Below, one piece after another: positions 1 through 19,010 of a DNA stretch of 64,000 bases; position 1 is the first letter of the stretch; the number at the start of each line of letters is the position of its first letter. Origin of the DNA: Trypanosoma brucei (taxonomy: Eukaryota); NCBI GenBank assembly GCA_000002445.1, contig CP000069.1, forward strand, positions 704,001 to 768,000. The letters run 5' to 3'. The notes beneath the pieces are model-generated. The model made no database searches. It saw only the letters and a list, made by a program, of their open reading frames with translations, and had not been told where the DNA came from. The translations under genes and the position numbers were made by a program.

Positions 1-536
1 GAGCTTCCATAAGCGCTACCTGAAGTCACTGGTAGATGGTGGCGGTTGTTCCCAATGTACTTCGGTCAACTGAACATAAGCAAGGGCAAGTACGCGAGAT
101 GTAGGGAGCGATCAAGCGAAGGGGAAGAAAACCAAAAAGGGAGAATAGTCAAGAAAGGACAGTCGAATCTTAGTTTCTGGAACTGCTCTCGCTTTTTTAG
201 CTTTAGTTCCTAACTTCTGAAGAATATCATATCCAAATACGAATATTATCAAATGGCTTGATGGTAGGTGGCCCGTATTTTTGCTTCTTTGTGTTTCTTG
301 CCTTCTCAGGCTTGGTTGTTAGACCTATGGTAGTAACAATTACATCATTGTTTTTCTTTCGACACCCCCGCACGGTGACGCCGATGGTAAGGTTACCGAC
401 GTGCGGGGTGCCACTTCGCTCCACTACTATTTCCATGATGTGTGACATAAACATGCTACTTATTATCTCGCTTACTCTTTTGAGCAAGGGTAAGTCTGTG
501 GAACGGTGATATTGTTGGTTTGACGACCCAAGCACT

Positions 537-2921
537 ATGTTGCGGCCATTCGTCGGGAGGATAGGACCGCTGGGAGGCCATGGGCACAGAAGGATGGTGT
601 GTAGCACCATCTGCCTGTTTCAGCGTGGCCAGTGGGGAAATGAAGGGTCCAGAGGAGATCAGCGCAACTACGACAATCGAGGTGGCCGAGGCGAGTGGGG
701 AGACCGGGGCGGTCAGCGTGGTGACAATCAGCGCGACTACGGAGATCAGCGCAACTACGACAATCGAGGTGGCCGAGGCGAGTGGGGAGACCGGGGCGGT
801 CAGCGTGGTGACAATCAGCGCGACTACGGAGATCAGCGCAACTACGACAATCGAGGTGGCCGAGGCGAGTGGGGAGACCGGGGCGGTCAGCGTGGTGACA
901 ATCAGCGCGACTACGGAGATCAGCGCAACTACGACAATCGAGGTGGCCGAGGCGAGTGGGGAGACCGGGGCGGTCAGCGTGGTGACAATCAGCGCGACTA
1001 CGGAGATCAGCGCAACTACGACAATCGAGGTGGCCGAGGCGAGTGGGGAGACCGGGGCGGTCAGCGTGGTGACAATCAGCGCGACTACGGAGATCAGCGC
1101 AACTACGACAATCGAGGTGGCCGAGGCGAGTGGGGAGACCGGGGCGGTCAGCGTGGTGACAATCAGCGCAACTACGACAATCGAGGTGGCCGAGGCGAGT
1201 GGGGAGACCGGGGCGGTCAGCGTGGTGGCAATCAGCGCGACAACTCTAACCAGTTCGGATACAGGAACGAGAGAGATGGTGGGATCGGACGGCAGCGGTC
1301 GGCGCGCGACAATTTTGGCGCCCATGACAATCGTGCTTCCGATGAACGTGGATCAACTGACCCCGCCGTGGGAGAAGTGTTTGATGAACAAGCTGCCAAG
1401 ATCCTCTACGAACTGAAACGCCGGTTTAAGAGCTCAAAAACCGGGAAAGAGAGAAGGGACGTACAACGTGAGGCCCGCCGCATCGTGCGGCGAGCGCGCG
1501 TCGACCCATCGACCCAGGACGAGAAATCGGTGACACTACTTCTCAACTGTGCCGCTACCTTCCGGTGCTATCCACATACAGAGGGAATCAAACAGGCTAC
1601 AGAATGGATGCGGAAAAATATTGACGGCTTGTCACCCCAAAACGTGGCCCTCTTCACGAACGCAATTGGAGCGCTCTCGGTAGTGGATAGCGATACCATT
1701 TTAATTAATGAGATATCTCCTGCAGTGGAAGCTTGTTACGGGCAAATGAACCCCGTGGAATTAGTGATGACCCTGCAAGCCTTCCAACGTGGGAGAATAA
1801 CAGAAAATGAAGACCTTCAGGTATCACTATTGCAGCAGTTAGTAACTTGTGTGCCGCAGATGCCGGCGCCCCAACTGTCCACCCTGGCGGGCGTCTTGGT
1901 GGACACACCTCTCCGGAAACGTGACGAAGCGACGTGGCAGGAGATCGCCAAAACTGTCGTCTCAAAGGCAGCCAGCGGTGCGGAGAACATGCATTCTCGA
2001 GAGGTTATAACGCTTCTAAAAGCCACACCGCGCCTTGGTGTCCCGGAAGACCACAGTTTCCATCTGGTTGATCGGGCCATTGCGACAGTGGGGTTCCACA
2101 CGGACGAGCAAATTGGGGAGCTTCTTGAAGCAGTATCATACTACCGTGATCCTCAAAAGACTTGTGGGAGGGAGCTGAACGAAAAACTCGACAAATTGGT
2201 TGATGCCCTATGGGCTCGTCTTCAGAAAGTGGCGCCCTTTGCGGATGCTGCAAGTGTTACAACGATCATGCGTGCCGCGCACAGGTCAGGTGTCGATGTT
2301 CCTCGTGACATTGTGAGCACTCTGGTTCAAGCGGTGATGAGGGAGCTCCGTTACCACCGTTTTACCTTCCGGCGAGTGGCGTCATTGTCTGAGGCTTTGG
2401 CGTTGCAGAAGGTACCCGCGAAGGAGCTACTCGTCATGCTTGGCGACTACTGCATCGGAAAGCGACCTCCACGGGAGGAGCGCGGCGAGAACACCCCCGT
2501 TGATGACCATAACTCAGGAATTGAAGAACGCATGGACATATATGCTCGCTTCCTTGGGGACTTGACAAAAGCGCGTATTGCACTAGAAAATGCCCACAGT
2601 TCCAACGCCGGAAACGGTGAACCGGGTTCAAGTGTTTCTCAGATTCTTGCACAGAGGCTGGAAGACAGCGTGGGCTCCGCCCCTCCGCGGGAGCTTCTCA
2701 AGTCTGTGCGAGCGATCTGCACCGCAGCTGACGACTGCCCGTTTCGAAATCGTGCGAATGACGGAAAGATCATAGCACTGTCTGAGCAACGGATTGCGAA
2801 GGAGGGCGCCAGTTTCATGGAGGGAGTGCGCAAGACGACCATGGAAAATTTTCTGTCGGCTGTTAGTGGCATTCCACAGGCGCAGAAGGTGGTTGAGGTA
2901 CTTTCCCACCAAACTAGGTAA
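537..2921 (+). CDS. RGG1: RGG-repeat RNA-binding protein. The N-terminus has about 7 copies of the 29-aa unit GDQRNYDNRGGRGEWGDRGGQRGDNQRDY, and the C-terminal half is helical. It is probably the mitochondrial oligo(U)-binding protein TbRGG1.
   Basis: Long + ORF whose N-terminus is encoded by the 87-bp tandem repeat at 657-1250, with RGG/RGD-rich Arg-Gly repeats. Its position just upstream of a RAC/AKT-like kinase and the tandem adenosine kinase genes matches what I recall of T. brucei chromosome 6. The true start may lie downstream of 537. Confidence 0.6.
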   Translation: MLRPFVGRIGPLGGHGHRRMVCSTICLFQRGQWGNEGSRGDQRNYDNRGGRGEWGDRGGQRGDNQRDYGDQRNYDNRGGRGEWGDRGGQRGDNQRDYGDQRNYDNRGGRGEWGDRGGQRGDNQRDYGDQRNYDNRGGRGEWGDRGGQRGDNQRDYGDQRNYDNRGGRGEWGDRGGQRGDNQRDYGDQRNYDNRGGRGEWGDRGGQRGDNQRNYDNRGGRGEWGDRGGQRGGNQRDNSNQFGYRNERDGGIGRQRSARDNFGAHDNRASDERGSTDPAVGEVFDEQAAKILYELKRRFKSSKTGKERRDVQREARRIVRRARVDPSTQDEKSVTLLLNCAATFRCYPHTEGIKQATEWMRKNIDGLSPQNVALFTNAIGALSVVDSDTILINEISPAVEACYGQMNPVELVMTLQAFQRGRITENEDLQVSLLQQLVTCVPQMPAPQLSTLAGVLVDTPLRKRDEATWQEIAKTVVSKAASGAENMHSREVITLLKATPRLGVPEDHSFHLVDRAIATVGFHTDEQIGELLEAVSYYRDPQKTCGRELNEKLDKLVDALWARLQKVAPFADAASVTTIMRAAHRSGVDVPRDIVSTLVQAVMRELRYHRFTFRRVASLSEALALQKVPAKELLVMLGDYCIGKRPPREERGENTPVDDHNSGIEERMDIYARFLGDLTKARIALENAHSSNAGNGEPGSSVSQILAQRLEDSVGSAPPRELLKSVRAICTAADDCPFRNRANDGKIIALSEQRIAKEGASFMEGVRKTTMENFLSAVSGIPQAQKVVEVLSHQTR
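657..1250 (+). repeat. 87-bp perfect tandem repeat. Six full units plus one truncated 69-nt unit and flanking partial units, all inside the RGG1 coding sequence.
   Basis: The motif gatcagcgcaactacgacaatcgaggtggccgaggcgagtggggagaccggggcggtcagcgtggtgacaatcagcgcgactacgga recurs at 657, 744, 831, 918, 1005 and 1092 with identical sequence. All three forward frames and the reverse frames stay open across it. Confidence 0.95.
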
Positions 2922-3431: not shown

Positions 3432-4649
3432 ATGTCTGGGCTATGGAGTTTTAGGGACAATGCCCCCTCATCGCATTGTGTTGGTGCGACAACGAGGGCG
3501 GTGTTGCCAGCTTCCGCCGACGAAATTGTATTGCAAGATGCACTGGTGGAGAGCAGTTCAATGCTGGTGGGAAATGCGGTACGTGGCTTCGAGACGGTCA
3601 CCGATGTTGGTTTGGTCGTTGAGGAAATGCAGGTAGAGTGGGTTGAGAAAACGCTGGGAATTCTTAAGAGTTCTTCGTATCACTTAAGCAATCAGTGCGA
3701 AAAGGGGTCTGAGTCGATGCTAAATCACCCTGGTGAGGGCTGTTCCTCGACAGCAACTTCTTTGAACCTGTTGGACGAAGAAGACATGGAAGTAGTGCGT
3801 TCACTACTGAAACCTCGCGATGATTGTGGCATCAAAGTTCGCGGGGCTACATCTAAGCGGAACTGTGGGCCCATTGAACCCTCATCGTCCGTGTTGCGCA
3901 CAGCGGGTACGGCACCGCGGAGGCGAGATCGACCGTGCGCCGCTGAACCACGCGAGGTAGACACTGTGCCTGTTGTAAGGGTTCAAGTAGCTCGAAAGAG
4001 CGGCACGCGGCCGTTTGTTGCTGCAGAACTGCTTGACTATCCGCTTAAACCATCATGGAACAACACCAGAGGTTCTGCCCAACGATTGAAAGAGCGCGTT
4101 CCTGCCACGCGCATGCCGCAGCGAGCAGCTGTTGGGCCAGCCAATCAGATTATCTGTGATTCCACAAGTTTTCTCATACCGGGGTCAAACATTTCGCTGA
4201 AACAGCCAAAGGAAGTGACATCGATTTGTAGGACGCGGAAGAAAGCGCCACTCTACGATGCGCTGCCACTACAGACGCAAGTTACCCTCTTGTCACTTGA
4301 GGCTACCCGACAAAGTGGGTGGCACCGTGATTTCTTGGATAAGTTCGACACAATCGCACGCAAGTGGCGCTCCCTTCACATGAGGAAGTTTGTTTGGGGG
4401 AGGTGGTGTTTTCGTCAAGGTAAAAGGGTTGGGGTGCCAATTTCCGTACTCGTAGCAGTGACTGACTCTTCCTTTCTCACCCCCCAGCGTGTAGGCTCTT
4501 TTCCACTATTAGCCGGCCATGCCATGAAGGCTATCGACGGTCCTGACGCTCGACTCCTCCGCTGGTACTTTGTGATGTGGGTGGCCGCCGTCCAAAGGGT
4601 GCAGGAGCAACGTTCATCTGCAGGAAGATTTGGTCCCATACATTCATAA
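3432..4649 (+). CDS. hypothetical protein with no recognisable domain
   Basis: 405-aa + ORF in the correct orientation for the polycistron. No motif recognised. Confidence 0.4.
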   Translation: MSGLWSFRDNAPSSHCVGATTRAVLPASADEIVLQDALVESSSMLVGNAVRGFETVTDVGLVVEEMQVEWVEKTLGILKSSSYHLSNQCEKGSESMLNHPGEGCSSTATSLNLLDEEDMEVVRSLLKPRDDCGIKVRGATSKRNCGPIEPSSSVLRTAGTAPRRRDRPCAAEPREVDTVPVVRVQVARKSGTRPFVAAELLDYPLKPSWNNTRGSAQRLKERVPATRMPQRAAVGPANQIICDSTSFLIPGSNISLKQPKEVTSICRTRKKAPLYDALPLQTQVTLLSLEATRQSGWHRDFLDKFDTIARKWRSLHMRKFVWGRWCFRQGKRVGVPISVLVAVTDSSFLTPQRVGSFPLLAGHAMKAIDGPDARLLRWYFVMWVAAVQRVQEQRSSAGRFGPIHS

Positions 4650-5320: not shown

Positions 5321-6697
5321 ATGACCATCGATTACTCAGGTTTTCTTGATGAACCGAGTGGAGCCTCCAGCGAGGTAACCGCATCGCGGTACTTTGAGAT
5401 CCGTGGGTCGATACTTTACTGCTGGACTTATAAACCCGAGAATCCAGGAGACAAACCGCTTAGCTCCATTGATCTTACGGACGTGCACATTACACGGGAT
5501 GAAGCTGATCGGAGGTCGTGGTCAGTCCAGGGTGGAAAACTCCGCAAGCCGCATATGTTCACTGCTGAAAATGAGGAGGAAAGGGAGGTTTGGATAGAGA
5601 AGATGGCACATCCAAACCCTGCTAACACTGAGATACTTCGCACGTTAGAGCAAACTAGTGATGGGGATGATACAGCTCCTCTTTGCAGTGGTGGAAGCAA
5701 CAGGGTGTCTTTGAACGACTTCCAATTTGCGGCGAAAATTGGGAAGGGATCATTCAGCTCTGTGTATGCTGCTACAGAGAAAGCTACTGGTAAAACTTAC
5801 GCAATTAAAAAAATGGAAAAAGAGGTGATTGAGCGCTACAACATGATCGATAACATTTCTGCAGAGAGGCTCATTCTTCAGAAGATTGATCATCCTTTCA
5901 TCGTGTCCCTTCATTATGCCTTTCAAACCAAAGGCAGCCTTTACCTTGTGATGGATTTCTTATCCGGAGGAGAACTATTCTTTCATCTCGAATCTGTGTC
6001 GGTTTTTGACGAGTGGCGTGCAAAGTTTTATTGCGGCGAGATTGCGCTCGCCCTTGGCTATCTTCACGCGCAAGACATCATTTACCGCGACTTAAAGCCC
6101 GAAAACGCAGTGCTTGACGCGGATGGACACGTGTGCCTTACCGACTTCGGGCTTGCCAAGATGGATGTACGCGATGCTTGTAATTTCACCTTCTGTGGGA
6201 CTCCAGAATATATAGCTCCAGAGTTTCTGCTTGGGAAGCCCCACGGGAAGGCGGTTGACTGGTGGTCGCTCGGTATTCTACTATACGAGATGCTGGAGGG
6301 CATACCACCCTTCTACAGCGAGAATGTAAGTGCCATGTATGATAAGATACTGAGCTCCGAACTGCAGTTTGGCGACGGTGAGGGCGGGAGCAACAACATG
6401 CCCCAAATATCGGAGGAGGCCCAAGACCTTCTCCGCCGGCTCTTAGACCGCAACCCCGACACCCGACTCCAGGATGTGGAGGAGCTGAAAGGTCACCCAT
6501 TCTTTCGTGACCTCGACTGGGAAAAGCTGTTCCGGCGAGAGATTGAACCCCCGTTCCGCCCAGACGGCAACGCGCTGAGTAATTTCGATCAAGAGTTCAC
6601 TTCTGCGGACCCTCCAATGGTACAACCGGACGATGAAGTAGTGGAGGACAAAAGCATATGCGGTTTCACGTTTAATGGGAGATCAAGACCTACATAG
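5321..6697 (+). CDS. AGC-family Ser/Thr protein kinase with an N-terminal PH domain, of the RAC/AKT (PKB) type
   Basis: N-terminal PH-like segment (YFEIRGSILYCW...EEREVWIEKM). Kinase motifs GKGSFSSV, AIKKM, YRDLKPENAVLD, DFGLAK and GTPEYIAPE are present. An AGC C-terminal extension carries the FxxF-type hydrophobic motif (ICGFTFNG). Confidence 0.85.
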   Translation: MTIDYSGFLDEPSGASSEVTASRYFEIRGSILYCWTYKPENPGDKPLSSIDLTDVHITRDEADRRSWSVQGGKLRKPHMFTAENEEEREVWIEKMAHPNPANTEILRTLEQTSDGDDTAPLCSGGSNRVSLNDFQFAAKIGKGSFSSVYAATEKATGKTYAIKKMEKEVIERYNMIDNISAERLILQKIDHPFIVSLHYAFQTKGSLYLVMDFLSGGELFFHLESVSVFDEWRAKFYCGEIALALGYLHAQDIIYRDLKPENAVLDADGHVCLTDFGLAKMDVRDACNFTFCGTPEYIAPEFLLGKPHGKAVDWWSLGILLYEMLEGIPPFYSENVSAMYDKILSSELQFGDGEGGSNNMPQISEEAQDLLRRLLDRNPDTRLQDVEELKGHPFFRDLDWEKLFRREIEPPFRPDGNALSNFDQEFTSADPPMVQPDDEVVEDKSICGFTFNGRSRPT

Positions 6698-8043
6698 CGT
6701 TTGCTTGCATCCACTCTTAGGTGTGGCGCCTTCGTTAGGGACCGCAGCACCGGCTGCTGTTTCCAGAGCATCTTCCCTTGCTTCATTTTCGTCCTCTGTT
6801 TTACCGTTATGTGTGTGTGTGTGCTACCGCGGTAAAGTAACCTAGCATGTTTGACGTTGTGTGCCACTTTTTTATGTGGACGAACGGTCCCACATGTTGG
6901 GAAATGTTAGTCCCTCAAGCACGTACGTGTACGAGAGAGGAATGAATGTATCGTATGCTATCTAGTAAATCCAACAAAAAGCATTCCCCTTTCTTTGACA
7001 CCTCCAGCATATTGCGCACCCTTTAAGGTTTGCCGGACGCGATCCTTCTACTTTCTACAGTTCGTTTGGCACAACGAATGGGACATTGTGAAGAAATCAG
7101 TTGTTCGGAACATAATATATTGCCCTTGATTAGCTTTGCAGACGTTTGTACGCCATGTGTACGTACAGAGCGAGTGGCACATCCTTGTCAGTGAATTGAA
7201 GAAACGGGGGAAAGTACACACTTCCTGAGTTAGAGCATGGCCTCACACATGTCTCTCTCCAGTCTTTTTTCGACTCTACCCTCTATTTTTTAGTTTTGAT
7301 ATTGTATTCCCTTTCATCGTCGCCCCAGTACTCGAGACACAGCTCACATTACTTATAGGTACCGCAGTCACTCCGCACTACAAGAAAAATACCAGCAACA
7401 AGTCAAAGTTTGAAATAAAGGGGAGGAAATGCGTAATTTAAGTGCTTTGCATGTACGGTGCATTTTTAATGTATTGGACCGATCCACGACGGTGACGCAA
7501 CTGTTACCCTCAGGATGCCACTACAGATTCGACCGCTCTAGCACCACACAGAGGGTCTACATTATGAATAACTCACAACATAACACATGAACAACGAATG
7601 AGGGAATAAATGATAAGATAAGGAAATGTCATTTGTGAAGAGCGCATTTATATTGTATGCATGGAAAGATGCACTTAATGTGGTTCGGTTTGTGTATTTC
7701 TAATTTGCTGCTGTAGTTGCTGACGTTTGTGGGCACTCGATAGTATTCTGTGTTTCGTATGAGGACCCCTACGTCTCTTCTTCCTTTCTTTGGCTCACGT
7801 TATCTGTAGGTTGTGCTGTACGCTCTGCCTTGACTGCTACTCGTATTGTTAGTCGGTTGTCGTTTTCACCCGTTACACTGCTGCCCTATATATATATATT
7901 GGCTTCGGTCCCACACTTTACTACATTATTTGTTAACCTACTGCTGTGATGCCCCTTCTATCATAGGAAAGGTATTATTAAGAAAAAGGCGTGGCGCGGG
8001 TGCCCCACTTCGTGGAAGAGAGTGGTTCTTAACGAATTAAGCT

Positions 8044-8610
8044 ATGCGGGCGTGGAGTAACCTGCTAGCGTCTGTGACGATGGCGCCGTTTTTTCTGCTA
8101 TGTTTTGTCTGCTCTTGCGTTTGGCCCGCCGTAGCTACTGCGGGAAGCATTCCCCTTGCTGTTGTGGGCAGTGTCATCACTTCAGAGGATGCGTACCGTT
8201 TTATTGAGGTTCAAGCTGTCGACGGCGCCACAGGAGCTGTTGTGCGCTCCGTGCCACTGGATGCAACGCTTACCTTTACTTTTCACGGTCTACCCCAAAC
8301 TGTAAGTGAGGTGCGGCTCTTGCCGAGGCTGCCTGAGCGGCGGTTTCGTCTCGATAGCAGTGCCTCTGTACTCACTGCGCCTTTGCGGACAAAAGATGGG
8401 GATGGGTGGCTCCACTTATCCGCGATTGTAGAGCAGCAAGATGGTTCACAAGCAGGGGATCAATTACCTGGGAGTATAAGTGCGGCAGTTATGGCAGCGA
8501 TGATTATTGCCCTTGCGGTGATTGGCCGATATCGATTGTTGTCGCTGTTTCAGTTTCCGGCTCCAAAACCGCCGAAGTTGCGTCGTGTAGCTGTGGCAGT
8601 GAATCGGTAA
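8044..8610 (+). CDS. hypothetical type-I membrane protein (copy 1) with an N-terminal signal peptide and a C-terminal TM helix
   Basis: 188-aa ORF with a hydrophobic N-terminus (MAPFFLLCFVCSCVWPAVATA) and a C-terminal hydrophobic stretch (AAVMAAMIIALAVIG) followed by basic residues. Confidence 0.5.
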   Translation: MRAWSNLLASVTMAPFFLLCFVCSCVWPAVATAGSIPLAVVGSVITSEDAYRFIEVQAVDGATGAVVRSVPLDATLTFTFHGLPQTVSEVRLLPRLPERRFRLDSSASVLTAPLRTKDGDGWLHLSAIVEQQDGSQAGDQLPGSISAAVMAAMIIALAVIGRYRLLSLFQFPAPKPPKLRRVAVAVNR

Positions 8611-9017
8611 GGCGAGTTTATGGACACGTGTGTGTTCTTGACTTTTCTCACATTCGTATTGCGGTGTGCTGTTGCGAGCATTTTGCATTTTCTGGTGTTG
8701 GTGTTGGTGTTGGTGCTGGGTATAGGGGTGCTACTGCTTGTTTATATGTATGTGTGCGTGTAACTCTCACTAGCATATGAACTCGAGTACTTTCTTCCTG
8801 CCTCTGCTGCTCGTCTGTTATCATGAAGCAGGTACCTCCTAACTCCACTGAGTTTGTAATTGGGCGCATTTTAACCTTCCTGTTGCGTTGCCACTGTAAC
8901 AGCACTGTACCCCTTTCCTTCACTTCTGTGCATATGTGCGTGCCAACAACTTTCCGACGACCCGCTGTCTTGTAGAAAGTAGCAACAGGTGAGCCCGTCA
9001 CGCCTTCTCCCCTGACG

Positions 9018-9770
9018 ATGCCCGCACGTGGCTGTGCCCCTGTTGATGAGCAGATCGCTGGGACAGACACGGAAGGACGACGCTACAGGTCAGTGGAGGA
9101 GATGTGGGGACGCGAGTTGCAGGGTAACTTGTACGACGCGAAGACAGGGTGGTATGGTAAGTCTCTCCAGTACTGGGGCAGCGTTCCGGCTACCGTCAGC
9201 GGTGTACTGGGCGGTATGGATCATGTGCATGATATCGACATCCGTGATTCACGCGCTTTCATATGCTGCTTGCCGGAGCGCGGCACTACACGTGCACTTG
9301 ACTGCGGTGCCGGTATTGGTCGAATCACCAAGTCCCTTTTGTGCCACTTATACGATGTGACAGATCTTCTGGAACCGGTGGCAAGCATGCTGGAGAAGGC
9401 GAAAGAGGAACTTGAGGGGTTTCCAGTGGGCGATTTCTTTCAGTCGTCGATGGAGACAGCGAAGCTTCAACCGAAGACATACGACCTCATTGTTATTCAA
9501 TGGGCGGCGATCTATCTGACAGACGAGGACTTTGTTGCTTTCTTGGTACGCTGCAAGGAGGCACTGACACCGAAGGGGTACATATTCTTCAAGGAGAATT
9601 GCGCGTCTGACGACGAGTTCATTGTTGACAAGGAGGACAGTAGCCTGACGCGATCCGACAAGCACTACAAGCGTATATTTGCCGCTGCCGGTATTGAGGT
9701 TGTTAAGGAGGCTATGCAAGGCGATTGGCCTGATGATCTGCTGAAGGTGAAGATGTACGCACTACGCTAA
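9018..9770 (+). CDS. alpha N-terminal protein methyltransferase, NTMT1/METTL11A family (copy 1)
   Basis: Family signature GWYGKSLQYW...VSGVLGG...DIDIRDSRAF. SAM-binding motif I LDCGAGIGRITKSLL. The 250-aa length is typical of the family. Confidence 0.8.
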   Translation: MPARGCAPVDEQIAGTDTEGRRYRSVEEMWGRELQGNLYDAKTGWYGKSLQYWGSVPATVSGVLGGMDHVHDIDIRDSRAFICCLPERGTTRALDCGAGIGRITKSLLCHLYDVTDLLEPVASMLEKAKEELEGFPVGDFFQSSMETAKLQPKTYDLIVIQWAAIYLTDEDFVAFLVRCKEALTPKGYIFFKENCASDDEFIVDKEDSSLTRSDKHYKRIFAAAGIEVVKEAMQGDWPDDLLKVKMYALR

Positions 9771-10144
9771 GCAGTTGGTCCTCCCACCGGTTGTTGATGT
9801 GTTCTCACTTCTTGTTGGCGCATTGCTGTTGTCGTCACTTTGTTTTGTTGTTCTTTGCATGGTTTATTTTTTTCAATTAGAGGCCACTACCTCTGCGTTG
9901 CCATCGCTTGGCTTACCCTAACGGTGGCACTGCCAACCCTCGTACTCGTCACACGGTGGTCTTCTACCTCTGCATGAATTTTTTGTGTTATTTTTCTTAA
10001 TGTCCGACTATTTATTGTTGTTACGTCCCTTAGCTACTTTTGTGTGTGTTTAGTGTTGTTACTTTTGTAGCGGGTAAATCAATTCACGGTTATCAGGTTA
10101 AATAGGGGTAGCCATAATCAGGACTCTGGTGTGTAAAGGCGTGC

Positions 10145-10591
10145 GTGCGTAGACAGAGAGATTACATCGAGATGTCTGCACTTGCGGAGGCCGAGCGCAT
10201 GGAGCGCGAAAAAGCCCTTATGGAGGGACAGCAGCGGGTGGACATGCTCCGTGAGACGGTACGTATAATGGCGAATCGGCAAGCCGTTCTCGTCGGGACG
10301 AAGCGCCGTCTGCAAATTTCCACCGGAGAGTTGCAGCGTCTCTCTTCTGACCACTGTGTGTATGAGAGTGTGGGCCGCGTGTTTCTCCGGACACCGGTGC
10401 CGGCGTTCATAGAGAAGCAGATGGAGGCTGCAGAGAGGTGCGAGGCCGAAGAGAAGCGGCTGATGAGTGAGAAGCAGAGAGTTGTGGAGCAACTGCAGAA
10501 GGATGAAGTGCAGCTCCGTGAAGCAGCACAGCAGTACATGGCTGAAATGAGTGCCCGTCGGCAGTTACAACAGCAGCAGCAGAAACAGTAA
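10145..10591 (+). CDS. prefoldin beta-type subunit-like coiled-coil protein (copy 1)
   Basis: 148 aa, arranged as coiled coil, then a beta-hairpin segment (CVYESVGRVFLRTPVP), then coiled coil, with a Q-rich tail. The assignment rests on this architecture only. Confidence 0.45.
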   Translation: MRRQRDYIEMSALAEAERMEREKALMEGQQRVDMLRETVRIMANRQAVLVGTKRRLQISTGELQRLSSDHCVYESVGRVFLRTPVPAFIEKQMEAAERCEAEEKRLMSEKQRVVEQLQKDEVQLREAAQQYMAEMSARRQLQQQQQKQ

Positions 10592-10948
10592 CAGCTACGC
10601 TCTGCCCGCAATCGGCGTTCTAGGTATCTGCCGATATTGTGCATTTCTGTTGTCTGAGGTGTGCGCTACAGAATGTGCTGCTTTGGAGTGCGGCACCCTA
10701 TCAGCAAGGGTCCGTTCCAAGTAGTTTTGGCGTGCGTGTGTGAGTTTGACTGTGATGCATGGGACACCGTATAATTTAACGTCTCAGTCACTGGTGATTT
10801 CTAGGTCTGTTTTCATTTGTGTGTACCCTGTTTTCTGTTTCCATTCCTGTTCTGGGTACATCTTCCTCTTTTGTTTCTCAAACCCGTTATGTGAACGTGG
10901 GGAGGAAGGGAGTGTGTGGCACTCGGTCGGTTGCGTTGAAGGTGAGGT

Positions 10949-13738
10949 TTGCTTGGACCGGCGATGCTGTGCAGCGGCCGCATTATTCTCAAGAAGAAAT
11001 GGATTCCTCCACTTGGTTACCGGCCGAAGGATTTCGAGAGAAAATTGCGTTCTCCGCGTTCGTCGAAACCGTGGCGCGACCGCCGCGCGGCATCGGGTGG
11101 GCAGATTGAGGTTTCACCGAGTACCGCGGCGACGAACATTCCGCGCGGTGACCTTGTCTTTAGGCCCCCGCTCGGTATTCGTGATGTGCGACCGGGCTCT
11201 CCTTCGGCGCTTCTTCCAACCTTTGGATTTTCAGAAGAGCATCTTGCTGCGCATGCTCTTCCCGCTGCGGGGTCGCAGGTGGAAGGCGGGGATGTGTTAG
11301 CTGTAGCGGACCCACGGTCAGCATCACATCTGACGCTACCATTTGGGAGGGCACTAAACGTTAATGTTGAAGAAATCAAGACATATGAGGAGGGACCTGT
11401 GCCCATACACCTTCAGCAATTCCGGCGTAGTAGGCGGGAAGCAGCCGATTCCATCATTCTACCTCGCCATATTAACCGACTGTTCCATAAAATAATGGGT
11501 TGGTCGGAAGACCTCGTGAAAGTGGAAATGGATGAAGCCCCAACCCCAAACACAGGTGGAGTGCCCTCTGACACCGCGGCAGTGCGTGCGAAGGAAGCAC
11601 AGGAGTCTGAAGTTCCGTTGCTGAGGATGAAATACGATAACGTTGTGGACAAGATGAAGTATGGTGTTCTTCTTGACAATTATGAGAAGGACAAGTTTGC
11701 GATCGAACACCAACTTGAGATTGCTGGCGAGAAGTTCGAGCGGAAGTTCCTTGACTGGGAGGGTATGCATGTTCTCGATCAGGACCCCAGTGCGGCAGTG
11801 CGCGAGGTGCTTGAGAACAAGGCATCAATAGTAATGGAACAACCATCCTCGTTTGCCATACCTGTAGTGAATCGTGACTGCTGCCGCGGGTGTGGTGCGC
11901 TTCTGCAGGACCAAGATGAGAACTCTTTCGGGTATGTGCGGAAAGGTGATGTGGAGCGGTACATCATTGAGAAACAACAGAAAATGAGGGCGCGTGCTGA
12001 GTACGCGGATCGAATGTCTGAGCTGCAGGCGCACTGGCGGAAACATGGTCGGCGTGTGGGCGAGGAGTGGCTGGATTTTATGACCCAGGAGGAATTTGAT
12101 GCCTTTTACCGAGATAGGAACGCGCCGTTTGTATGCCACCGCTGCCACGCGCTAGAGAACCTCGGGGTGGAGGGGCGGCGTCGCATATGGTCAGCACCGG
12201 ACTTCACTGACAAGTTGCGTGCCCTTCGTGAGAAGAAATGTGTAGTGGTTCTTGTTGTTGACGTAACAGATTTTCCTGGGACTATGGTGTATGACCTCCC
12301 GGGCCTCATATCGATGAACAATGATGTGATAATTGCTGTGAATAAGATGGATTGTGTTAGGAATCGCTCCTTCAACTACCGAGGCAAGGATCGTGCGGTC
12401 GCTGCTTGCCTTGTGACCGAGCGGTACGTGAGACGGTGGGTGACTGGGATCGCCGTTCAGTTTGGACTACCACGTCACCAGATAAAGGACGTGATTCCTT
12501 TGTCTGCGAAGCGTGGTTGGAATGTAGAGGCTCTAATAGCGGCTGTGGAGGAGGCCTCCAACCTCAACCTTCGGCGACCAACAAAACCCATACCGACGTA
12601 TTTCGTTGGTGTTGCGAATGTTGGGAAGTCCTCCGTTATTAACGCCATTGCCCACAAACTGTATGTGCCTCTGCCACCCCACCCGGAGAGTCGGAAGGTA
12701 TACTACACGAAGAAGGCACCGGATGGAAGTGAGTCTGTTTTCTGGCGGTGGTACACACCTCCTAATGTGAACCAGGCGGAAATGATTGACATTCCATCTC
12801 GGCACGACAAGAAAGCCTCGAAGCTGGTAACTACCTCCTCCTTGCCTGGTACCACGGTTGACGCTGTTGCAGTGCGCGTTTCGCTGAGTAAAGGCGCGGA
12901 GAAGGGCCGTGCACATCTGTTCGACACACCCGGCCTCCTTCCGCATTGGCACCGTCACTCACCCCTGACGCTACTACAGATGCGACGCACCCTCATTCGC
13001 AAGTTCCGCAATCCTCAGTGCTTTATCCTGGTGCCTGGGAACACATTGTTTCTCGGAGGCCTCTGTGCCGTGGACGTAGTGAAAGGAACGTCGCGCGGGA
13101 TGCTTTTCATGGTTTACACGTCGCAGAAGGTACGTAACGCCATCATTAACACAGACCGGTCGGATGAGTTTTGGAGGGAACAACTTGGTCGTGCGCTTGA
13201 CCCACCCGGATCTGTGGAACAAGTTGGTGATCTTCGGCTCACGGAGTCGAGGAGCTATTTGTTTGAATGCTACCAGCGTAACCGAAAGCGGCCAAAGGCG
13301 GATATCTATTTCTGCGGACTTGGCTGGGTTGCGTTCTGTGTGAATGAGCCCGCAGATGTGGTACTGCGTGTGCGGACCTTACCGGGAGTAGTGCATGGTG
13401 TGCGCGAACCGTTGCGGTACAAGGACCTACTGGCATTTAAAGGGTGGCCGAAACTGCGGCGTCGTTTCACTTCTGCCGGTGTTCCTAATGACGAGGAGGA
13501 TGATGACAACTCCATTGCCACCGTTGTACGACTGACTGCTGGAGGTGGTGCTTGTGGGTTATCCGCTGCACCTGTGTGCGGCTCACCGGAAGAAGATGTT
13601 GATGGTCCTGCAGTACGGGTTGTTCGCAAGTCGGTCTTGCCGAAACCCATTCCGGCGTCGTCCACTCCTTTCGACGGCGTTGTTGAGGAACTGAGCCTAT
13701 CGGGACAAGCGGGAGGCGGTACGGGTGCGGGGATGTGA
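10949..13738 (+). CDS. circularly permuted GTPase of the YqeH/NOA1 family (copy 1), a likely mitochondrial ribosome-assembly factor
   Basis: N-terminal zinc knuckle CCRGCGALLQDQDENSFGY...CHRCH as in YqeH. GTPase motifs occur in permuted order: G4 NKMD, G1 GVANVGKSSVINAI, and G3 DTPGL. Confidence 0.75.
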   Translation: MLGPAMLCSGRIILKKKWIPPLGYRPKDFERKLRSPRSSKPWRDRRAASGGQIEVSPSTAATNIPRGDLVFRPPLGIRDVRPGSPSALLPTFGFSEEHLAAHALPAAGSQVEGGDVLAVADPRSASHLTLPFGRALNVNVEEIKTYEEGPVPIHLQQFRRSRREAADSIILPRHINRLFHKIMGWSEDLVKVEMDEAPTPNTGGVPSDTAAVRAKEAQESEVPLLRMKYDNVVDKMKYGVLLDNYEKDKFAIEHQLEIAGEKFERKFLDWEGMHVLDQDPSAAVREVLENKASIVMEQPSSFAIPVVNRDCCRGCGALLQDQDENSFGYVRKGDVERYIIEKQQKMRARAEYADRMSELQAHWRKHGRRVGEEWLDFMTQEEFDAFYRDRNAPFVCHRCHALENLGVEGRRRIWSAPDFTDKLRALREKKCVVVLVVDVTDFPGTMVYDLPGLISMNNDVIIAVNKMDCVRNRSFNYRGKDRAVAACLVTERYVRRWVTGIAVQFGLPRHQIKDVIPLSAKRGWNVEALIAAVEEASNLNLRRPTKPIPTYFVGVANVGKSSVINAIAHKLYVPLPPHPESRKVYYTKKAPDGSESVFWRWYTPPNVNQAEMIDIPSRHDKKASKLVTTSSLPGTTVDAVAVRVSLSKGAEKGRAHLFDTPGLLPHWHRHSPLTLLQMRRTLIRKFRNPQCFILVPGNTLFLGGLCAVDVVKGTSRGMLFMVYTSQKVRNAIINTDRSDEFWREQLGRALDPPGSVEQVGDLRLTESRSYLFECYQRNRKRPKADIYFCGLGWVAFCVNEPADVVLRVRTLPGVVHGVREPLRYKDLLAFKGWPKLRRRFTSAGVPNDEEDDDNSIATVVRLTAGGGACGLSAAPVCGSPEEDVDGPAVRVVRKSVLPKPIPASSTPFDGVVEELSLSGQAGGGTGAGM

Positions 13739-14409
13739 GTCTGGCGTGCTACCGTTTGTGCGGAGAACCGACCGACCTTTGTGGGTATAACACAATGCAC
13801 TGATGTTTGATTCATCCTTTTTCATGTTGTCCCAACCGACTTACTTGTTCCGCTCCGTTCCGTTCTGTTGCGTTGTGCTGCTGATACTGCAATTTCTTTC
13901 TCGTCGCTTTTGTTGTCAATTTTCTTTATCGTGCTGCGGTGATCTGCAATGGAGGGGTATGCCGTCGCTGGGGATAGACGTTTGCATTTACATGGATAGT
14001 GTTTTCATAGCTGTTCTACCCCTGTTTCTGGAGACGCGGCATTGCTGTTGGCGTTACTTTATATGATTAGTTTTGGTTGTGTTCTGGGGGTGGATGTGCG
14101 ATGGACGGGTGTGCTGTCTGTCACCGAAGGCCGATGCGTTTTGGTACGCCGTGACTGATGTTACTGTTATTTTTTTAAAGGTTGCGTTGAGTTTCTATCG
14201 CCTTGATGTGTGTTGTTAGTGTCTTTTATTTTTGTTGTGTCACTCTTATTTTGCTGATTACTGCTTTATAGTGTAGCAGTTGTCATTCTCGATATCCTTT
14301 CTCCTTGATCTACTTCATTACGTGTAATATTACCCTGGTGGGATAACTCTGCCCAAGGCCGATAGTTATAACGCTAACAAGAATCATCTACTTTCAGTCA
14401 TCTAAAGGT

Positions 14410-15453
14410 TTGCAAATGTCATCCGCTCCTCTGAGGGTATACGTTCAGTGTAATCCATTACTTGACGTCTCGGCTCACGTGTCCGACGAATTTTTGGTCA
14501 AGTATGGTTTGGAGCGCGGTACGGCCATCTTGTTGTCTGAGCGCCAGAAAGGAATATTCGACGATATCGAGAAAATGCCCAATGTGCGGTATGTCCCTGG
14601 TGGATCTGGCTTGAACGTGGCGCGCGTTGCGCAGTGGATGCAGCAAGCGTATAAGGGGAAGTTTGTTACATATGTTGGCTGCATTGCAGATGATCGGTAC
14701 GGCAAGGTTCTGAAGGAAGCTGCCGAGCATGAAGGAATTGTGATGGCTGTTGAGCATACGACGAAAGCAGGGAGTGGTGCGTGTGCAGTTTGTATCACCG
14801 GCAAGGAACGCACTCTTGTTGCTGATCTTGGTGCAGCAAATCACCTCTCCAGTGAGCATATGCGCTCCCCTGCTGTCGTGAGGGCGATGGATGAATCCAG
14901 AATTTTCTATTTCTCCGGTTTCACGTTGACAGTTGACGTTAATCACGTTCTTCAGGCGTGCAGAAAGGCTCGTGAGGTGGATGGACTTTTTATGATCAAC
15001 TTATCGGCCCCTTTTATTATGCAATTCTTTTCCGCGCAACTTGGGGAGGTTCTGCCCTATACTGATATAATTGTGGCCAACCGACATGAGGCAAAGGAGT
15101 TTGCCAACATGATGAAGTGGGATACGGACTGTGTCGAGGAGATTGCAAGGCGAGCAGTATCTGAGGTTCCTTACACAGGCACAAAAGGTCGTGTTGTTGT
15201 GTTCACTCGTGATATTGAACCTACTGTAATTGCAACTAAGGATGGTGTGGAGACGGTTCCTGTACCTCAGTTAGATCAGGACAAAGTAATTGACATGAAT
15301 GGTGCTGGGGATGCATTTGTGGGTGGATTTTTGAGTGCTTATGCCGTTGGTAAGGATTTGCGGCGCTGTTGCGAAACTGGCCACTACACAGCACAAGAGG
15401 TTATCCAGCAAGACGGTTGCTCGTTCCCCGAGAAGCCCAGTTTCTCTCCTTGA
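14410..15453 (+). CDS. ADK: adenosine kinase (PfkB/ribokinase family), upstream tandem copy
   Basis: N-terminal PfkB motif GGSGLNVARVAQ and C-terminal motif DMNGAGDAFVGGFL. The 347-aa length is typical. T. brucei is known to carry tandem AK genes. Confidence 0.9.
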   Translation: MQMSSAPLRVYVQCNPLLDVSAHVSDEFLVKYGLERGTAILLSERQKGIFDDIEKMPNVRYVPGGSGLNVARVAQWMQQAYKGKFVTYVGCIADDRYGKVLKEAAEHEGIVMAVEHTTKAGSGACAVCITGKERTLVADLGAANHLSSEHMRSPAVVRAMDESRIFYFSGFTLTVDVNHVLQACRKAREVDGLFMINLSAPFIMQFFSAQLGEVLPYTDIIVANRHEAKEFANMMKWDTDCVEEIARRAVSEVPYTGTKGRVVVFTRDIEPTVIATKDGVETVPVPQLDQDKVIDMNGAGDAFVGGFLSAYAVGKDLRRCCETGHYTAQEVIQQDGCSFPEKPSFSP

Positions 15454-16110
15454 TGTTTTTTCACGTAAACACTTTGTTTAAAAATGTTATGTAACATAAA
15501 ATATATGTTGGTTTTTATCTTTTTTCTTTTCGGTTTCTGGTAAGTAAAGTTTAATGGGAAATATGGCGTAAGCGATATCATATCACTTTGTCTGAGGGAA
15601 GAAAGAATGAGGTCATAAATGGCAGATGGTAACAGTGTAATATCTTGAGTTGCTATCTATATTACCTTGTTTGTTTAAAAAAGGAGTTTGAAAGTGATGA
15701 TGCTGGTTGATTCACATCGTGTTTTTTTCACACTTTCTTTATTTCCTTTATCCTTCTTTTTTTTTCATAAAAGATGATTACATCCTATATTATGAGGGTT
15801 CAATATTATTGTTTCTACTTGTTGAGTTGTTTACGCTTGTATATCTACTCGTTTATTCCCAGGTGTGTACGCAGGCGGTGAGGAGGGTTGTAAGAAAACG
15901 GTAACGTAACAATTCTAACGGTTCCACATTTTTGCCTTTTTTTTTAAAGAATATATTAGGTCATGATGTTGTGCAGTTTTTGTTGAAGAGGGACATTTAC
16001 TTTATCTTCGATTACTCTTTTGAAGCACTAACGATGTAATGACCTGCCTCGCATAACACTACACTGAGCAAACTTGCTCACGTGAAGAATAAACGAATTC
16101 TGTATTTTGA

Positions 16111-16510
16111 TTGTGTCTGTGCCGTGGACGTAGTGAAAGGAACGTCGCGCGGGATGCTTTTCATGGTTTACACGTCGCAGAAGGTACGTAACGCCATCAT
16201 TAACACAGACCGGTCGGATGAGTTTTGGAGGGAACAACTTGGTCGTGCGCTTGACCCACCCGGATCTGTGGAACAAGTTGGTGATCTTCGGCTCACGGAG
16301 TCGAGGAGCTATTTGTTTGAATGCTACCAGCGTAACCGAAAGCGGCCAAAGGCGGATATCTATTTCTGCGGACTTGGCTGGGTTGCGTTCTGTGTGAATG
16401 AGCCCGCAGATGTGGTACTGCGTGTGCGGACCTTACCGGGAGTAGTGCATGGTGTGCGCGAACCGTTGCGGTACAAGGACCTACTGGCATTTAAAGGGTG
16501 GCCGAAACTG
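16111..16510 (+). pseudogene. 400-bp internal fragment of the YqeH-like GTPase gene, a third copy of 13070-13449, sitting at the duplication junction. It is part of the chimeric ORF 16082-16582.
   Basis: The ORF 16082-16582 translation (CAVDVVKGTSRGMLFMVYTSQ...LLAFKGWPKL) is identical to GTPase residues encoded at 13070-13449. It is then fused in frame to sequence homologous to 7645 onwards. There is no start context or N-terminal domain. Confidence 0.85.
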
Positions 16511-16909
16511 CATTTATATTGTATGCATGGAAAGATGCACTTAATGTGGTTCGGTTTGTGTATTTCTAATTTGCTGCTGTAGTTGCTGACGTTTGTGGGC
16601 ACTCGATAGTATTCTGTGTTTCGTATGAGGACCCCTACGTCTCTTCTTCCTTTCTTTGGCTCACGTTATCTGTAGGTTGTGCTGTACGCTCTGCCTTGAC
16701 TGCTACTCGTATTGTTAGTCGGTTGTCGTTTTCACCCGTTACACTGCTGCCCTATATATATATATTGGCTTCGGTCCCACACTTTACTACATTATTTGTT
16801 AACCTACTGCTGTGATGCCCCTTCTATCATAGGAAAGGTATTATTAAGAAAAAGGCGTGGCGCGGGTGCCCCACTTCGTGGAAGAGAGTGGTTCTTAACG
16901 AATTAAGCT

Positions 16910-17476
16910 ATGCGGGCGTGGAGTAACCTGCTAGCGTCTGTGACGATGGCGCCGTTTTTTCTGCTATGTTTTGTCTGCTCTTGCGTTTGGCCCGCCGTAG
17001 CTACTGCGGGAAGCATTCCCCTTGCTGTTGTGGGCAGTGTCATCACTTCAGAGGATGCGTACCGTTTTATTGAGGTTCAAGCTGTCGACGGCGCCACAGG
17101 AGCTGTTGTGCGCTCCGTGCCACTGGATGCAACGCTTACCTTTACTTTTCACGGTCTACCCCAAACTGTAAGTGAGGTGCGGCTCTTGCCGAGGCTGCCT
17201 GAGCGGCGGTTTCGTCTCGATAGCAGTGCCTCTGTACTCACTGCGCCTTTGCGGACAAAAGATGGGGATGGGTGGCTCCACTTATCCGCGATTGTAGAGC
17301 AGCAAGATGGTTCACAAGCAGGGGATCAATTACCTGGGAGTATAAGTGCGGCAGTTATGGCAGCGATGATTATTGCCCTTGCGGTGATTGGCCGATATCG
17401 ATTGTTGTCGCTGTTTCAGTTTCCGGCTCCAAAACCGCCGAAGTTGCGTCGTGTAGCTGTGGCAGTGAATCGGTAA
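16910..17476 (+). CDS. hypothetical type-I membrane protein (copy 2)
   Basis: Translation identical to 8044-8610. Confidence 0.5.
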   Translation: MRAWSNLLASVTMAPFFLLCFVCSCVWPAVATAGSIPLAVVGSVITSEDAYRFIEVQAVDGATGAVVRSVPLDATLTFTFHGLPQTVSEVRLLPRLPERRFRLDSSASVLTAPLRTKDGDGWLHLSAIVEQQDGSQAGDQLPGSISAAVMAAMIIALAVIGRYRLLSLFQFPAPKPPKLRRVAVAVNR

Positions 17477-17883
17477 GGCGAGTTTATGGACACGTGTGTG
17501 TTCTTGACTTTTCTCACATTCGTATTGCGGTGTGCTGTTGCGAGCATTTTGCATTTTCTGGTGTTGGTGTTGGTGTTGGTGCTGGGTATAGGGGTGCTAC
17601 TGCTTGTTTATATGTATGTGTGCGTGTAACTCTCACTAGCATATGAACTCGAGTACTTTCTTCCTGCCTCTGCTGCTCGTCTGTTATCATGAAGCAGGTA
17701 CCTCCTAACTCCACTGAGTTTGTAATTGGGCGCATTTTAACCTTCCTGTTGCGTTGCCACTGTAACAGCACTGTACCCCTTTCCTTCACTTCTGTGCATA
17801 TGTGCGTGCCAACAACTTTCCGACGACCCGCTGTCTTGTAGAAAGTAGCAACAGGTGAGCCCGTCACGCCTTCTCCCCTGACG

Positions 17884-18636: not shown

Positions 18637-19010
18637 GCAGTTGGTCCTCCCACCGGTTGTTGATGTGTTCTCACTTCTTGTTGGCGCATTGCTGTTGTCG
18701 TCACTTTGTTTTGTTGTTCTTTGCATGGTTTATTTTTTTCAATTAGAGGCCACTACCTCTGCGTTGCCATCGCTTGGCTTACCCTAACGGTGGCACTGCC
18801 AACCCTCGTACTCGTCACACGGTGGTCTTCTACCTCTGCATGAATTTTTTGTGTTATTTTTCTTAATGTCCGACTATTTATTGTTGTTACGTCCCTTAGC
18901 TACTTTTGTGTGTGTTTAGTGTTGTTACTTTTGTAGCGGGTAAATCAATTCACGGTTATCAGGTTAAATAGGGGTAGCCATAATCAGGACTCTGGTGTGT
19001 AAAGGCGTGC

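What the first reader, a model, noticed from the sequence alone, without database searches (positions are those of the whole stretch)
657..1250. Perfect 87-bp tandem array encoding a 29-aa RGG/DY repeat in a putative mitochondrial RNA-binding protein
There are six full nucleotide-identical 87-bp units plus one truncated 69-nt unit. Identity at the DNA level, not merely the protein level, indicates recent expansion or homogenisation. Copy number is therefore likely polymorphic and possibly collapsed in this assembly. The unit encodes GDQRNYDNRGGRGEWGDRGGQRGDNQRDY, whose RGG boxes with regularly spaced Tyr and Trp are typical of nucleic-acid-binding, phase-separating low-complexity domains. Its position and architecture fit TbRGG1, an oligo(U)-binding factor associated with RNA editing.
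Basis: partly seen in the sequence, partly recalled or inferred. Interest (0 to 1): 0.5.

Follow-up and report, generated by a model that had tools for sequence, protein, structure and literature searches.

The report
RGG repeat array of trypanosome KRGG1

Summary
Window 654-1244 is 7 x 87 bp minus one 18-bp junction deletion. Units 1-5 are nucleotide-identical, unit 6 differs at one base (1170), and the 69-nt last unit differs at two (1228, 1242). The array is in frame in a 794-aa ORF (537-2921, +) and encodes GDQRNYDNRGGRGEWGDRGGQRGDNQRDY.

From Met20 the protein is 100% identical to XP_845344.1/Q584T3 (Tb927.6.2230, T. brucei TREU927). It shares a 90% cluster with O47955, 'mitochondrial oligo U binding protein TBRGG1'.

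The rest of the protein is a RESC6-like all-helical repeat domain. The array is predicted to be disordered.

Copy number is polymorphic. DAL972 and the 1998 TBRGG1 record have 5 units, and a T. b. equiperdum assembly has 7 full units. A 2023 paper reports that ORFs cloned from strain 29.13 lack aa 170-221, exactly the 52 aa extra here. I found no sign of collapse in this assembly.

T. cruzi (60-bp unit) and T. vivax (about 63-bp unit) orthologues carry their own homogenised arrays, which indicates concerted evolution.

The literature already covers RNA binding by the RGG domain, PRMT1 methylation, essentiality and RESC association. Verdict: correct, ordinary, already known.

The parts
537..2921 (+). 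KRGG1/TbRGG1 coding sequence (794 aa plus stop), using the upstream ATG. The deposited TREU927 model starts at Met20, window 594.
   Evidence: ORF list. Identity to XP_845344.1 from Met20. Orthologues start at the upstream Met. Published residue numbering (ARR 313-315, LLLN 334-337) matches the 794-aa model.
537..653 (+). N-terminal 39 aa, Arg-rich and almost acid-free (6 R+K, 1 D+E). Putative mitochondrial presequence ending in the conserved FQRGQWG.
   Evidence: Composition. Conserved in T. cruzi and T. vivax orthologues. Mitochondrial location is from the literature. The cleavage site was not determined.
654..1088 (+). Five nucleotide-identical 87-bp units, each encoding GDQRNYDNRGGRGEWGDRGGQRGDNQRDY.
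1089..1175 (+). Sixth 87-bp unit with one difference (1170 G>A, D>N). This base marks the junction of an 18-bp in-frame deletion between the intra-unit ATCAGCGC sub-repeats.
   Evidence: The deletion is absent from the DAL972 and T. b. equiperdum arrays.
1176..1244 (+). Terminal 69-nt unit (unit positions 19-87) with 2 differences (1228, 1242). The GGC variant at unit position 71 and the terminal AAC are shared with the last unit of the other alleles.
1245..1370 (+). Non-repetitive G/R/D/N-rich linker (aa 237-278), predicted disordered.
   Evidence: pLDDT below 50 for residues 1-278.
1371..2918 (+). RESC6-like all-alpha tandem helical-repeat (ARM/HEAT-like) domain, aa 279-794. It contains the functionally tested ARR (1473-1481) and LLLN (1536-1547) motifs.
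   Evidence: Precomputed PF26188:RESC6 on orthologues. PDB sequence hit to RESC6 8fn4_6, E=4.9e-5. AF2 model with 27 helices, pLDDT mostly 85-96. Top Foldseek hits are RESC6 8fni_6 (E=2.9e-10) and 8fn4_6. Mutagenesis is in PMC9891254.

Best explanation
The array is the coding sequence of the intrinsically disordered N-terminal RGG/RG domain of KRGG1 (TbRGG1, Tb927.6.2230). KRGG1 is a nuclear-encoded mitochondrial RNA-binding protein of Trypanosoma brucei.

Proposed mechanism. After import through the basic N-terminal presequence, about seven 29-aa modules form a flexible, multivalent RNA-binding tail. Each module has 6 Arg (two RGG triplets plus two further RG), 6 acidic residues, 2 Tyr and 1 Trp, so its net charge is zero. 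Published work shows that the RGG domain alone binds RNA and that TbPRMT1 methylates it in vitro. [quoted passage not shown] Together the two domains would hold the protein on editing substrates and shift transcript-specific editing: on loss of KRGG1, edited A6 falls and edited ND8 rises.

DNA level. The array behaves as a coding minisatellite kept homogeneous by unequal exchange or slippage. This produces the 5-unit and 7-unit alleles within the T. brucei group and different unit lengths in other Trypanosoma species.

What is shown here: the repeat anatomy, the identity of the protein, the domain architecture, predicted disorder, allele differences and lineage-specific units.

What comes from the literature: RNA binding, methylation, essentiality and RESC association.

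What is inferred: that multivalency is the reason for the repeats, and that recombination or slippage is the homogenising process.
For: Anatomy of the array and its reading frame.

Identity to the TREU927 protein and shared cluster with TBRGG1 O47955. Orthologues are named TBRGG1 in T. cruzi, T. theileri, T. rangeli, T. grayi, T. vivax, Novymonas and Leptomonas.

Disordered residues 1-278 followed by a confident helical domain. RESC6 is the best match by sequence and by fold.

Alleles: DAL972 has 5 units with alternating GAC/GGC. T. b. equiperdum has 7 full units. The 1998 record has 5 units. Clones from strain 29.13 lack aa 170-221. Flanking coding DNA differs by only 4-5 of 1677 nt between these strains, so the array changed on a within-species time scale.

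T. cruzi has 60 bp x 9.7 copies at 97% and T. vivax has about 63 bp x 6.7 copies at 95%.

Composition is conserved across species despite different units: G 0.24-0.40, R 0.15-0.20, almost no K, aromatic residues 0.07-0.15 (about 0.10 in most), small net charge.

Functional literature.
Against: Nothing contradicts the identification.

The mechanistic part is less secure. Which RNAs the domain binds in vivo is unknown; oligo(U) and G-quadruplex-containing pre-mRNA have both been proposed. KRGG1's association with RESC is RNase-sensitive, and KRGG1 is not counted as a RESC subunit.

The published functional clones carried the 5-unit form, so two of the units here are dispensable. No experiment I found deletes the whole array in vivo.

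The local Pfam library gave no hit for this protein. The RESC6 assignment therefore rests on precomputed annotations, a modest PDB sequence E-value and the fold match.
Confidence: 0.9

Rival explanations
1. Assembly artefact: the array length or uniformity in this window results from mis-assembly (collapse or false expansion) of near-identical units, and the true locus differs.
For: Five units carry no distinguishing variants. Many orthologue gene models are cut or marked partial at the array: T. theileri, T. rangeli, T. grayi, T. melophagium and T. congolense. The T. b. equiperdum model is broken by a 1-nt deletion inside the array. Other T. brucei records have 5 units.
Against: The array is only 591 bp with unique flanks. 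The translated sequence equals the deposited TREU927 protein. An independent assembly of a close relative also has 7 units. The 18-bp junction deletion is in frame and specific, which is not what collapse produces. The 5- versus 7-unit difference was seen by direct cloning and sequencing in two laboratories, so it reflects real alleles.
Confidence: 0.04
2. The repeat is a non-coding minisatellite, or is read in another frame or strand. Candidate ORFs are 580-1416 (+), 278 aa, and 456-1325 (-), 289 aa.
For: Three frames are open across the array.
Against: Those frames are open only because the unit lacks stops. Their products (ISATTTIEVAEASGETGAVSVVT..., and SVVALIVTTLTAPVSPLASATSIVVVALI... on the minus strand) end just outside the array. 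Only the 537 frame continues into a 558-aa conserved domain with orthologues across kinetoplastids. All array changes in intact alleles preserve that frame: 87-bp units and the 18-bp deletion. Every credible gene in the window is on the + strand. No Rfam family or tRNA was found.
Confidence: 0.01
3. The protein is the same, but the array has a different primary role. It would act as a methylation-regulated, charge-neutral, aromatic-rich scaffold for protein-protein contacts or condensate formation, or for recognising G-quadruplex structure in pre-edited mRNAs, rather than as an oligo(U) binder.
For: Each unit has zero net charge (6 R versus 5 D + 1 E) and regularly spaced Tyr/Trp. This balance is kept in T. 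cruzi and T. vivax units. The protein is a tight TbPRMT1 substrate with 1:1 binding by ITC. The 2023 paper proposes G-quadruplex recognition. RGG domains of another trypanosome protein (SCD6) control RNP granules (title and abstract).
Against: The RGG domain alone was reported to bind RNA (Vanhamme 1998 as cited). I found no data on condensates or G4 binding for KRGG1. The two roles are not mutually exclusive.
Confidence: 0.25

Closest known systems
TbRGG1 / KRGG1 (Tb927.6.2230; UniProt Q584T3; original record O47955, Vanhamme et al. 1998)
   Same: It is this gene. The product is 100% identical from Met20 to the TREU927 protein. It has the same RGG array, the same RESC6-like domain, and the same neighbours (405-aa ORF and PH-domain kinase downstream) as in DAL972 and T. 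b. equiperdum.
   Different: The ORF read here starts 19 codons upstream of the deposited TREU927 model. The array has 7 units with an 18-bp junction deletion, against 5 units in DAL972, O47955 and clones from strain 29.13.
[quoted passage not shown]
   Same: The C-terminal 515 aa share the right-handed helical-repeat fold and show weak sequence homology. Carnes et al. 2023 reached the same conclusion.
   Different: The RESC6 match covers only the C-terminal helical domain, not the RGG array. Identity is about 15-17%. KRGG1 associates with RESC in an RNase-sensitive way and is not counted as a subunit.
RGG/RG-motif RNA-binding domains (e.g. FMRP, FUS, nucleolin; in T. brucei RESC13/TbRGG2, KRGG3, RBP16)
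   Same: Clustered RGG/RG, Gly-rich, disordered, a PRMT1 substrate, and RNA binding by the isolated domain.
   Different: The array is built from long, exact 29-aa modules. It is charge-balanced by Asp/Glu, rich in Asn/Gln and has no Lys. By my own recollection, classical RGG boxes are strongly basic.
Coding minisatellites under concerted evolution in trypanosomatid genes
   Same: Head-to-tail units of a multiple of 3 nt, near-100% identity between units, copy-number differences between strains, and different units in sister species.
   Different: The array is short (5-7 units) and lies in an essential housekeeping RNA-processing factor. By my own recollection, such arrays are more typical of surface or cytoskeletal antigens.

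Membership tests
TbRGG1/KRGG1 orthologue group | Sequence identity to the reference T. brucei protein | tested here: met
   Window protein residues 20-794 equal XP_845344.1/Q584T3 exactly. It shares a 90% cluster with O47955 TBRGG1. It is 93% identical over 100% coverage to DAL972, the gap being due to the array.
TbRGG1/KRGG1 orthologue group | N-terminal RGG repeat domain followed by a RESC6-like helical-repeat domain | tested here: met
   15 RGG and 33 RG in aa 40-245. PF26188:RESC6 on orthologues. RESC6 is the top hit by PDB sequence and by fold. The local Pfam scan itself returned nothing.
TbRGG1/KRGG1 orthologue group | Conserved gene neighbourhood | tested here: met
   In the DAL972 and T. 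b. equiperdum loci, the downstream 405-aa ORF and PH+kinase gene match window ORFs 3432-4649 and 5321-6697.
TbRGG1/KRGG1 orthologue group | Mitochondrial localisation and oligo(U)/RNA binding | not testable with these tools
   Only a basic, acid-poor N-terminus is visible. Localisation and binding come from Vanhamme 1998 as cited and from database names.
RGG/RG-motif domain (Thandapani et al. 2013 definition, recalled from memory: RGG or RG repeats spaced by 0-4 residues) | Clusters of three or more RG/RGG with spacers of 4 residues or fewer | tested here: met
   Each unit contains R-G-G-R-G-EWGD-R-G-GQ-R-G, i.e. four RG with spacers of 1, 4 and 2 residues. The two RGG triplets are 6 residues apart, so the strict di-RGG spacing is not met but tri-RG is.
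RGG/RG-motif domain | Arginine methylation by a type I PRMT | not testable with these tools
   Literature only: in vitro methylation by TbPRMT1 and methyl-peptides by MS; MBP-TbRGG1 used as a PRMT1 substrate. Site-to-RGG mapping was not available to me.
RGG/RG-motif domain | Intrinsic disorder | tested here: met
   AF2 pLDDT of 24-39 (means of 10-residue blocks) over residues 1-278 and no secondary structure. This is a prediction, not a measurement.
Coding minisatellite under concerted evolution | Copy-number and variant-pattern differences between close strains, with lineage-specific units in sister species | tested here: met
   7 units (window), 5 (DAL972), 7 (T. b. equiperdum), 5 (O47955), with different GAC/GGC/AGC patterns. 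Flanks are at least 99.7% identical. T. cruzi has 60-bp and T. vivax about 63-bp units.

The most novel reading that the evidence does not exclude
The 5- versus 7-unit alleles, and the uniform versus alternating Asp/Gly variant patterns, may not be neutral. Repeat number would set the valency of a charge-neutral, methylation-tunable RGG tail. It would thereby shift transcript-specific editing outcomes (A6 versus ND8) between T. brucei strains or subspecies. Separately, charge balance and aromatic spacing persist across species whose units have different lengths and sequences. This would mean that selection acts on a compositional 'grammar' rather than on sequence.
Probability: 0.1. Interest if true: 0.45.

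Novelty: already known. Interest (0 to 1): 0.12.

Why it matters
KRGG1 is essential for kinetoplastid mitochondrial RNA editing, a parasite-specific process of drug-target interest. The gene, its RGG repeats, their RNA binding and methylation, and even a repeat-number difference between strains are already published.

The practical value here is modest.
- The reference allele has two more units than the form used in functional studies.
- Many orthologue gene models are truncated or broken at this array.
- The deposited TREU927 start codon is probably 19 codons too far downstream.

Tried and rejected
Local Pfam scans of the full protein and of both halves gave no meaningful hit. The only result was DUF1045 at E=0.14, below its cutoff. 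I relied instead on precomputed PF26188, PDB sequence search and fold search.

The exact 794-aa sequence is not in the protein collection, because the deposited TREU927 model starts at Met20. No encoding contig is on record for that TREU927 protein, so the window's strain is inferred from protein identity only.

The alternative-frame ORFs 580-1416 (+) and 456-1325 (-) were rejected as stop-free artefacts of the repeat.

No tRNA and no Rfam family was found in the window.

A G-quadruplex pattern with four or more runs of GGG was not found on the coding strand of the array.

In the composition table, the rows for P0006, P0008 and P0011 are invalid, because those models lack the N-terminal region. 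P0013 and P0014 gave no row at all because the anchor motif was not found. All five were ignored.
Full report
**Observation**

The sequence at 654-1244 is a head-to-tail array with an 87-bp period. TRF reports 654-1176, 6.0 copies, 99% matches, score 1039. It also reports a 69-bp relation over 1093-1238, which reflects a shortened last unit.

Direct comparison shows:
- Units 1-5 (654-1088) are identical base for base.
- Unit 6 (1089-1175) differs at 1170 (G>A, Asp>Asn).
- A final unit of 69 nt (1176-1244) lacks the first 18 nt of the unit and differs at 1228 (A>G, Asp>Gly) and 1242 (T>A, Tyr>Asn).

Each unit begins GGAGATCAGCGCAACTAC and ends AATCAGCGCGACTAC. The 1170 difference and the missing 18 nt are therefore most simply a single in-frame deletion between the two ATCAGCGC sub-repeats. 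That is my inference from the sequence.

The 29-aa unit GDQRNYDNRGGRGEWGDRGGQRGDNQRDY is exactly as stated. Chance is not an issue: about 9e-44 exact 87-mer pairs are expected in 64 kb.

**What it belongs to**

The array is in frame within a 794-aa ORF at 537-2921 on the + strand. Two other long ORFs across the array, 580-1416 (+) and 456-1325 (-), exist only because the unit has no stop codon in those frames. They end just outside the repeat.

A protein search returned TBRGG1 orthologues from many trypanosomatids. The exact-sequence look-up found a 90% cluster that holds:
- the T. b. gambiense DAL972 protein (742 aa);
- the TREU927 protein XP_845344.1/Q584T3 (775 aa);
- a truncated T. b. equiperdum 'RGG protein' (437 aa);
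- O47955, 'Mitochondrial oligo U binding protein TBRGG1' (679 aa).

The window protein from Met20 onward is identical to the TREU927 record. The window is therefore TREU927 chromosome 6 or something indistinguishable from it at this locus. The literature equates Tb927.6.2230 with RGG1/TbRGG1/KRGG1.

**Architecture**

- Residues 1-39 are basic and nearly acid-free (6 R+K, 1 D+E). They are conserved in position and character in T. cruzi and T. vivax, as expected for a mitochondrial presequence.
- Residues 40-236 are the array, with 15 RGG and 33 RG overall.
- Residues 237-278 are a non-repetitive G/R/D-rich linker.

An AlphaFold2 model built on 14 orthologues gives pLDDT below 50 for residues 1-278. 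It gives a confident all-helical repeat domain (27 helices, pLDDT mostly 85-96) for about 279-794.

- by sequence, 8fn4_6, E=4.9e-5;
- by fold, 8fni_6 E=2.9e-10 and 8fn4_6 E=1.4e-8, followed by RESC8 and helical-repeat mitoribosomal proteins.

Orthologues carry the precomputed domain PF26188:RESC6. The local Pfam library returned nothing for this protein.

This reproduces Carnes et al. 2023 (PMC9891254), who reported KRGG1-RESC6 homology and an ARM/HEAT-like fold. Their residue numbers (ARR 313-315, LLLN 334-337) coincide with the 794-aa ORF read from ATG 537.

**Array evolution**

Within the T. brucei group the array differs while the flanks are nearly identical:
- DAL972 has 5 units with GAC/GGC alternating at unit position 71 and no 18-bp deletion. 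The 1677 nt of downstream coding sequence differ at only 5 positions.
- A T. b. equiperdum assembly has 7 full-length units with GAC/GGC and one AGC variant. It also has a 1-nt deletion in unit 4 that breaks the frame and explains the truncated 437-aa gene model. Downstream divergence is 4/1677.
- The 1998 record has 5 units with Gly>Arg and Gly>Ser variants.

Carnes et al. state that the ORF cloned from strain 29.13 lacks aa 170-221 relative to Tb927.6.2230. They add that an independently made plasmid from another laboratory carries the same form. Removing those 52 residues from the window protein gives a 5-unit, 742-aa protein. It differs from DAL972 at only four residues.

I found no indication that this assembly is collapsed. 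It carries the longest intact allele seen.

Other species carry their own homogenised arrays:
- T. cruzi: 60 bp x 9.7 copies, 97% matches, unit GGQRGGGRRDYGDQGNQGDY.
- T. vivax: 60/63 bp x 6.7 copies, 95% matches.
- T. congolense: about 11-aa GDYGDRRGGNQ units.

Several orthologue models are partial or begin after the array, which suggests assembly or annotation trouble there.

Within the T. brucei unit the two halves (15 + 14 aa) are related but well diverged at the DNA level, and six Arg use four different codons. The unit is therefore old, while the identity between units is recent. This is the signature of concerted evolution by unequal exchange or slippage, which I infer.

**How it most likely works**

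From the literature:
- The N-terminal RGG domain alone binds RNA (Vanhamme 1998, cited).
- It is methylated in vitro by TbPRMT1, and methylated peptides were seen by MS.
- MBP-TbRGG1 binds the PRMT1 ENZ-PRO heterotetramer 1:1.
- KRGG1 is essential in bloodstream forms. Its loss lowers edited A6 and raises edited ND8.
- Mutations in the helical domain abolish function and RESC association.
- Association with RESC is RNase-sensitive.

From the sequence: each unit has 6 Arg, 5 Asp + 1 Glu, 2 Tyr and 1 Trp, giving zero net charge. The whole low-complexity region has a net charge of only +4 over 244 residues.

The same compositional pattern holds in orthologues with unrelated unit lengths:

| Property | Range across orthologues |
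|---|---|
| Gly | 0.24-0.40 |
| Arg | 0.15-0.20 |
| Lys | almost none |
| Aromatic residues | 0.07-0.15 (about 0.10 in most) |
| Net charge | small positive |

My best reading is a disordered, multivalent, methylation-tunable RNA-binding tail tethered to a RESC6-like module that engages RESC. The functional clones used in published work carried only 5 units, so at least two units are dispensable. Whether the preferred ligand is U-tracts or G-quadruplex-containing pre-mRNA (proposed), and whether the domain drives condensation, remains untested.

**Comparison with what is known, and verdict**

This is not a relative of TbRGG1/KRGG1. It is that gene. The only small additions are:
- the exact anatomy of the TREU927 allele, including the 18-bp junction deletion;
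- the 5- versus 7-unit allele comparison at the DNA level;
- the probable mis-set start codon in the deposited TREU927 model;
- the conserved charge-neutral composition.

Novelty: already known. Interest: low.

**Context noticed in passing**

- All credible genes in the 64-kb window are on the + strand.
- A 7.8-kb segment carrying three genes is tandemly duplicated almost perfectly.
- The editing accessory factor p22 is encoded about 38 kb downstream.
- No tRNA or Rfam family was found.

Noticed in passing
window 7644-15463 and 16510-24329: There is a near-perfect 7.8-kb tandem segmental duplication at offset 8866 bp, with 12 mismatches in 7820 nt, all in the last ~250 nt. Each copy carries three genes: a 250-aa Methyltransf_PK (NTM1-like) protein, a 929-aa YqeH-like GTPase, and a 347-aa PfkB-family kinase. 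From memory, the kinase is probably the tandemly duplicated T. brucei adenosine kinase. An extra 396-nt fragment (13062-13457) is repeated at 16116-16511, just upstream of copy 2.
   Followed up: partly
window 537-596: The deposited TREU927 protein (XP_845344.1) starts at Met20 (ATG at 594). The DAL972 and O47955 records and the T. cruzi and T. vivax orthologues start at the upstream Met (ATG 537). The residue numbering in PMC9891254 also fits the 794-aa model. The upstream 19 codons form the basic start of the putative mitochondrial presequence, so the deposited start is probably too far downstream. The spliced-leader site was not determined.
   Followed up: partly
L004 2290-2376 (T. b. equiperdum GCA_003543875.1, CM010677.1): Unit 4 of a 7-unit array has a 1-nt deletion (GGTGAC>GGGAC) that shifts the frame. 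The annotated gene is cut to 437 aa starting at an internal Met. This is either a sequencing indel error or a disrupted allele of an otherwise essential gene.
   Followed up: partly
window 39387-40070 (+): A 227-aa MAM33-family ORF is near-identical over residues 47-227 to PDB 3JV1 (E=2.3e-119). 3JV1 is T. brucei p22, a COII-specific RNA-editing accessory factor. A second editing accessory factor therefore lies about 38 kb downstream of KRGG1, on the same strand.
   Followed up: partly
window 1-64000: All ORFs of 200 aa or more that look genuine are on the + strand, consistent with one trypanosomatid polycistronic unit. They include a PH-domain AGC-type kinase (5321-6697), a HECT E3 ligase (25690-29196), a DUF4139 protein, a gamma-tubulin complex component, ATG5, Mo25, a second protein kinase, a thioredoxin-Ufd2 fusion (47703-50702) and a DnaJ protein. 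There are no tRNAs or Rfam hits.
   Followed up: partly
orthologue records P0003, P0004, P0005, P0006, P0008, P0009: Many KRGG1 orthologue gene models are flawed. T. theileri and T. rangeli are flagged partial. T. grayi and T. melophagium begin after the array. T. congolense has an odd N-terminus. T. vivax Y486 has an internal gap. This suggests that the repeat array commonly breaks assemblies or annotations.
   Followed up: no
window 654-1244 (protein aa 40-236): The RGG unit is charge-neutral (6 Arg versus 5 Asp + 1 Glu). The near-neutral, Lys-free, roughly 10%-aromatic composition is kept in T. cruzi, T. vivax and leishmaniine orthologues whose repeat units differ in length and sequence. 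From my own recollection, this differs from classical strongly basic RGG boxes.
   Followed up: partly
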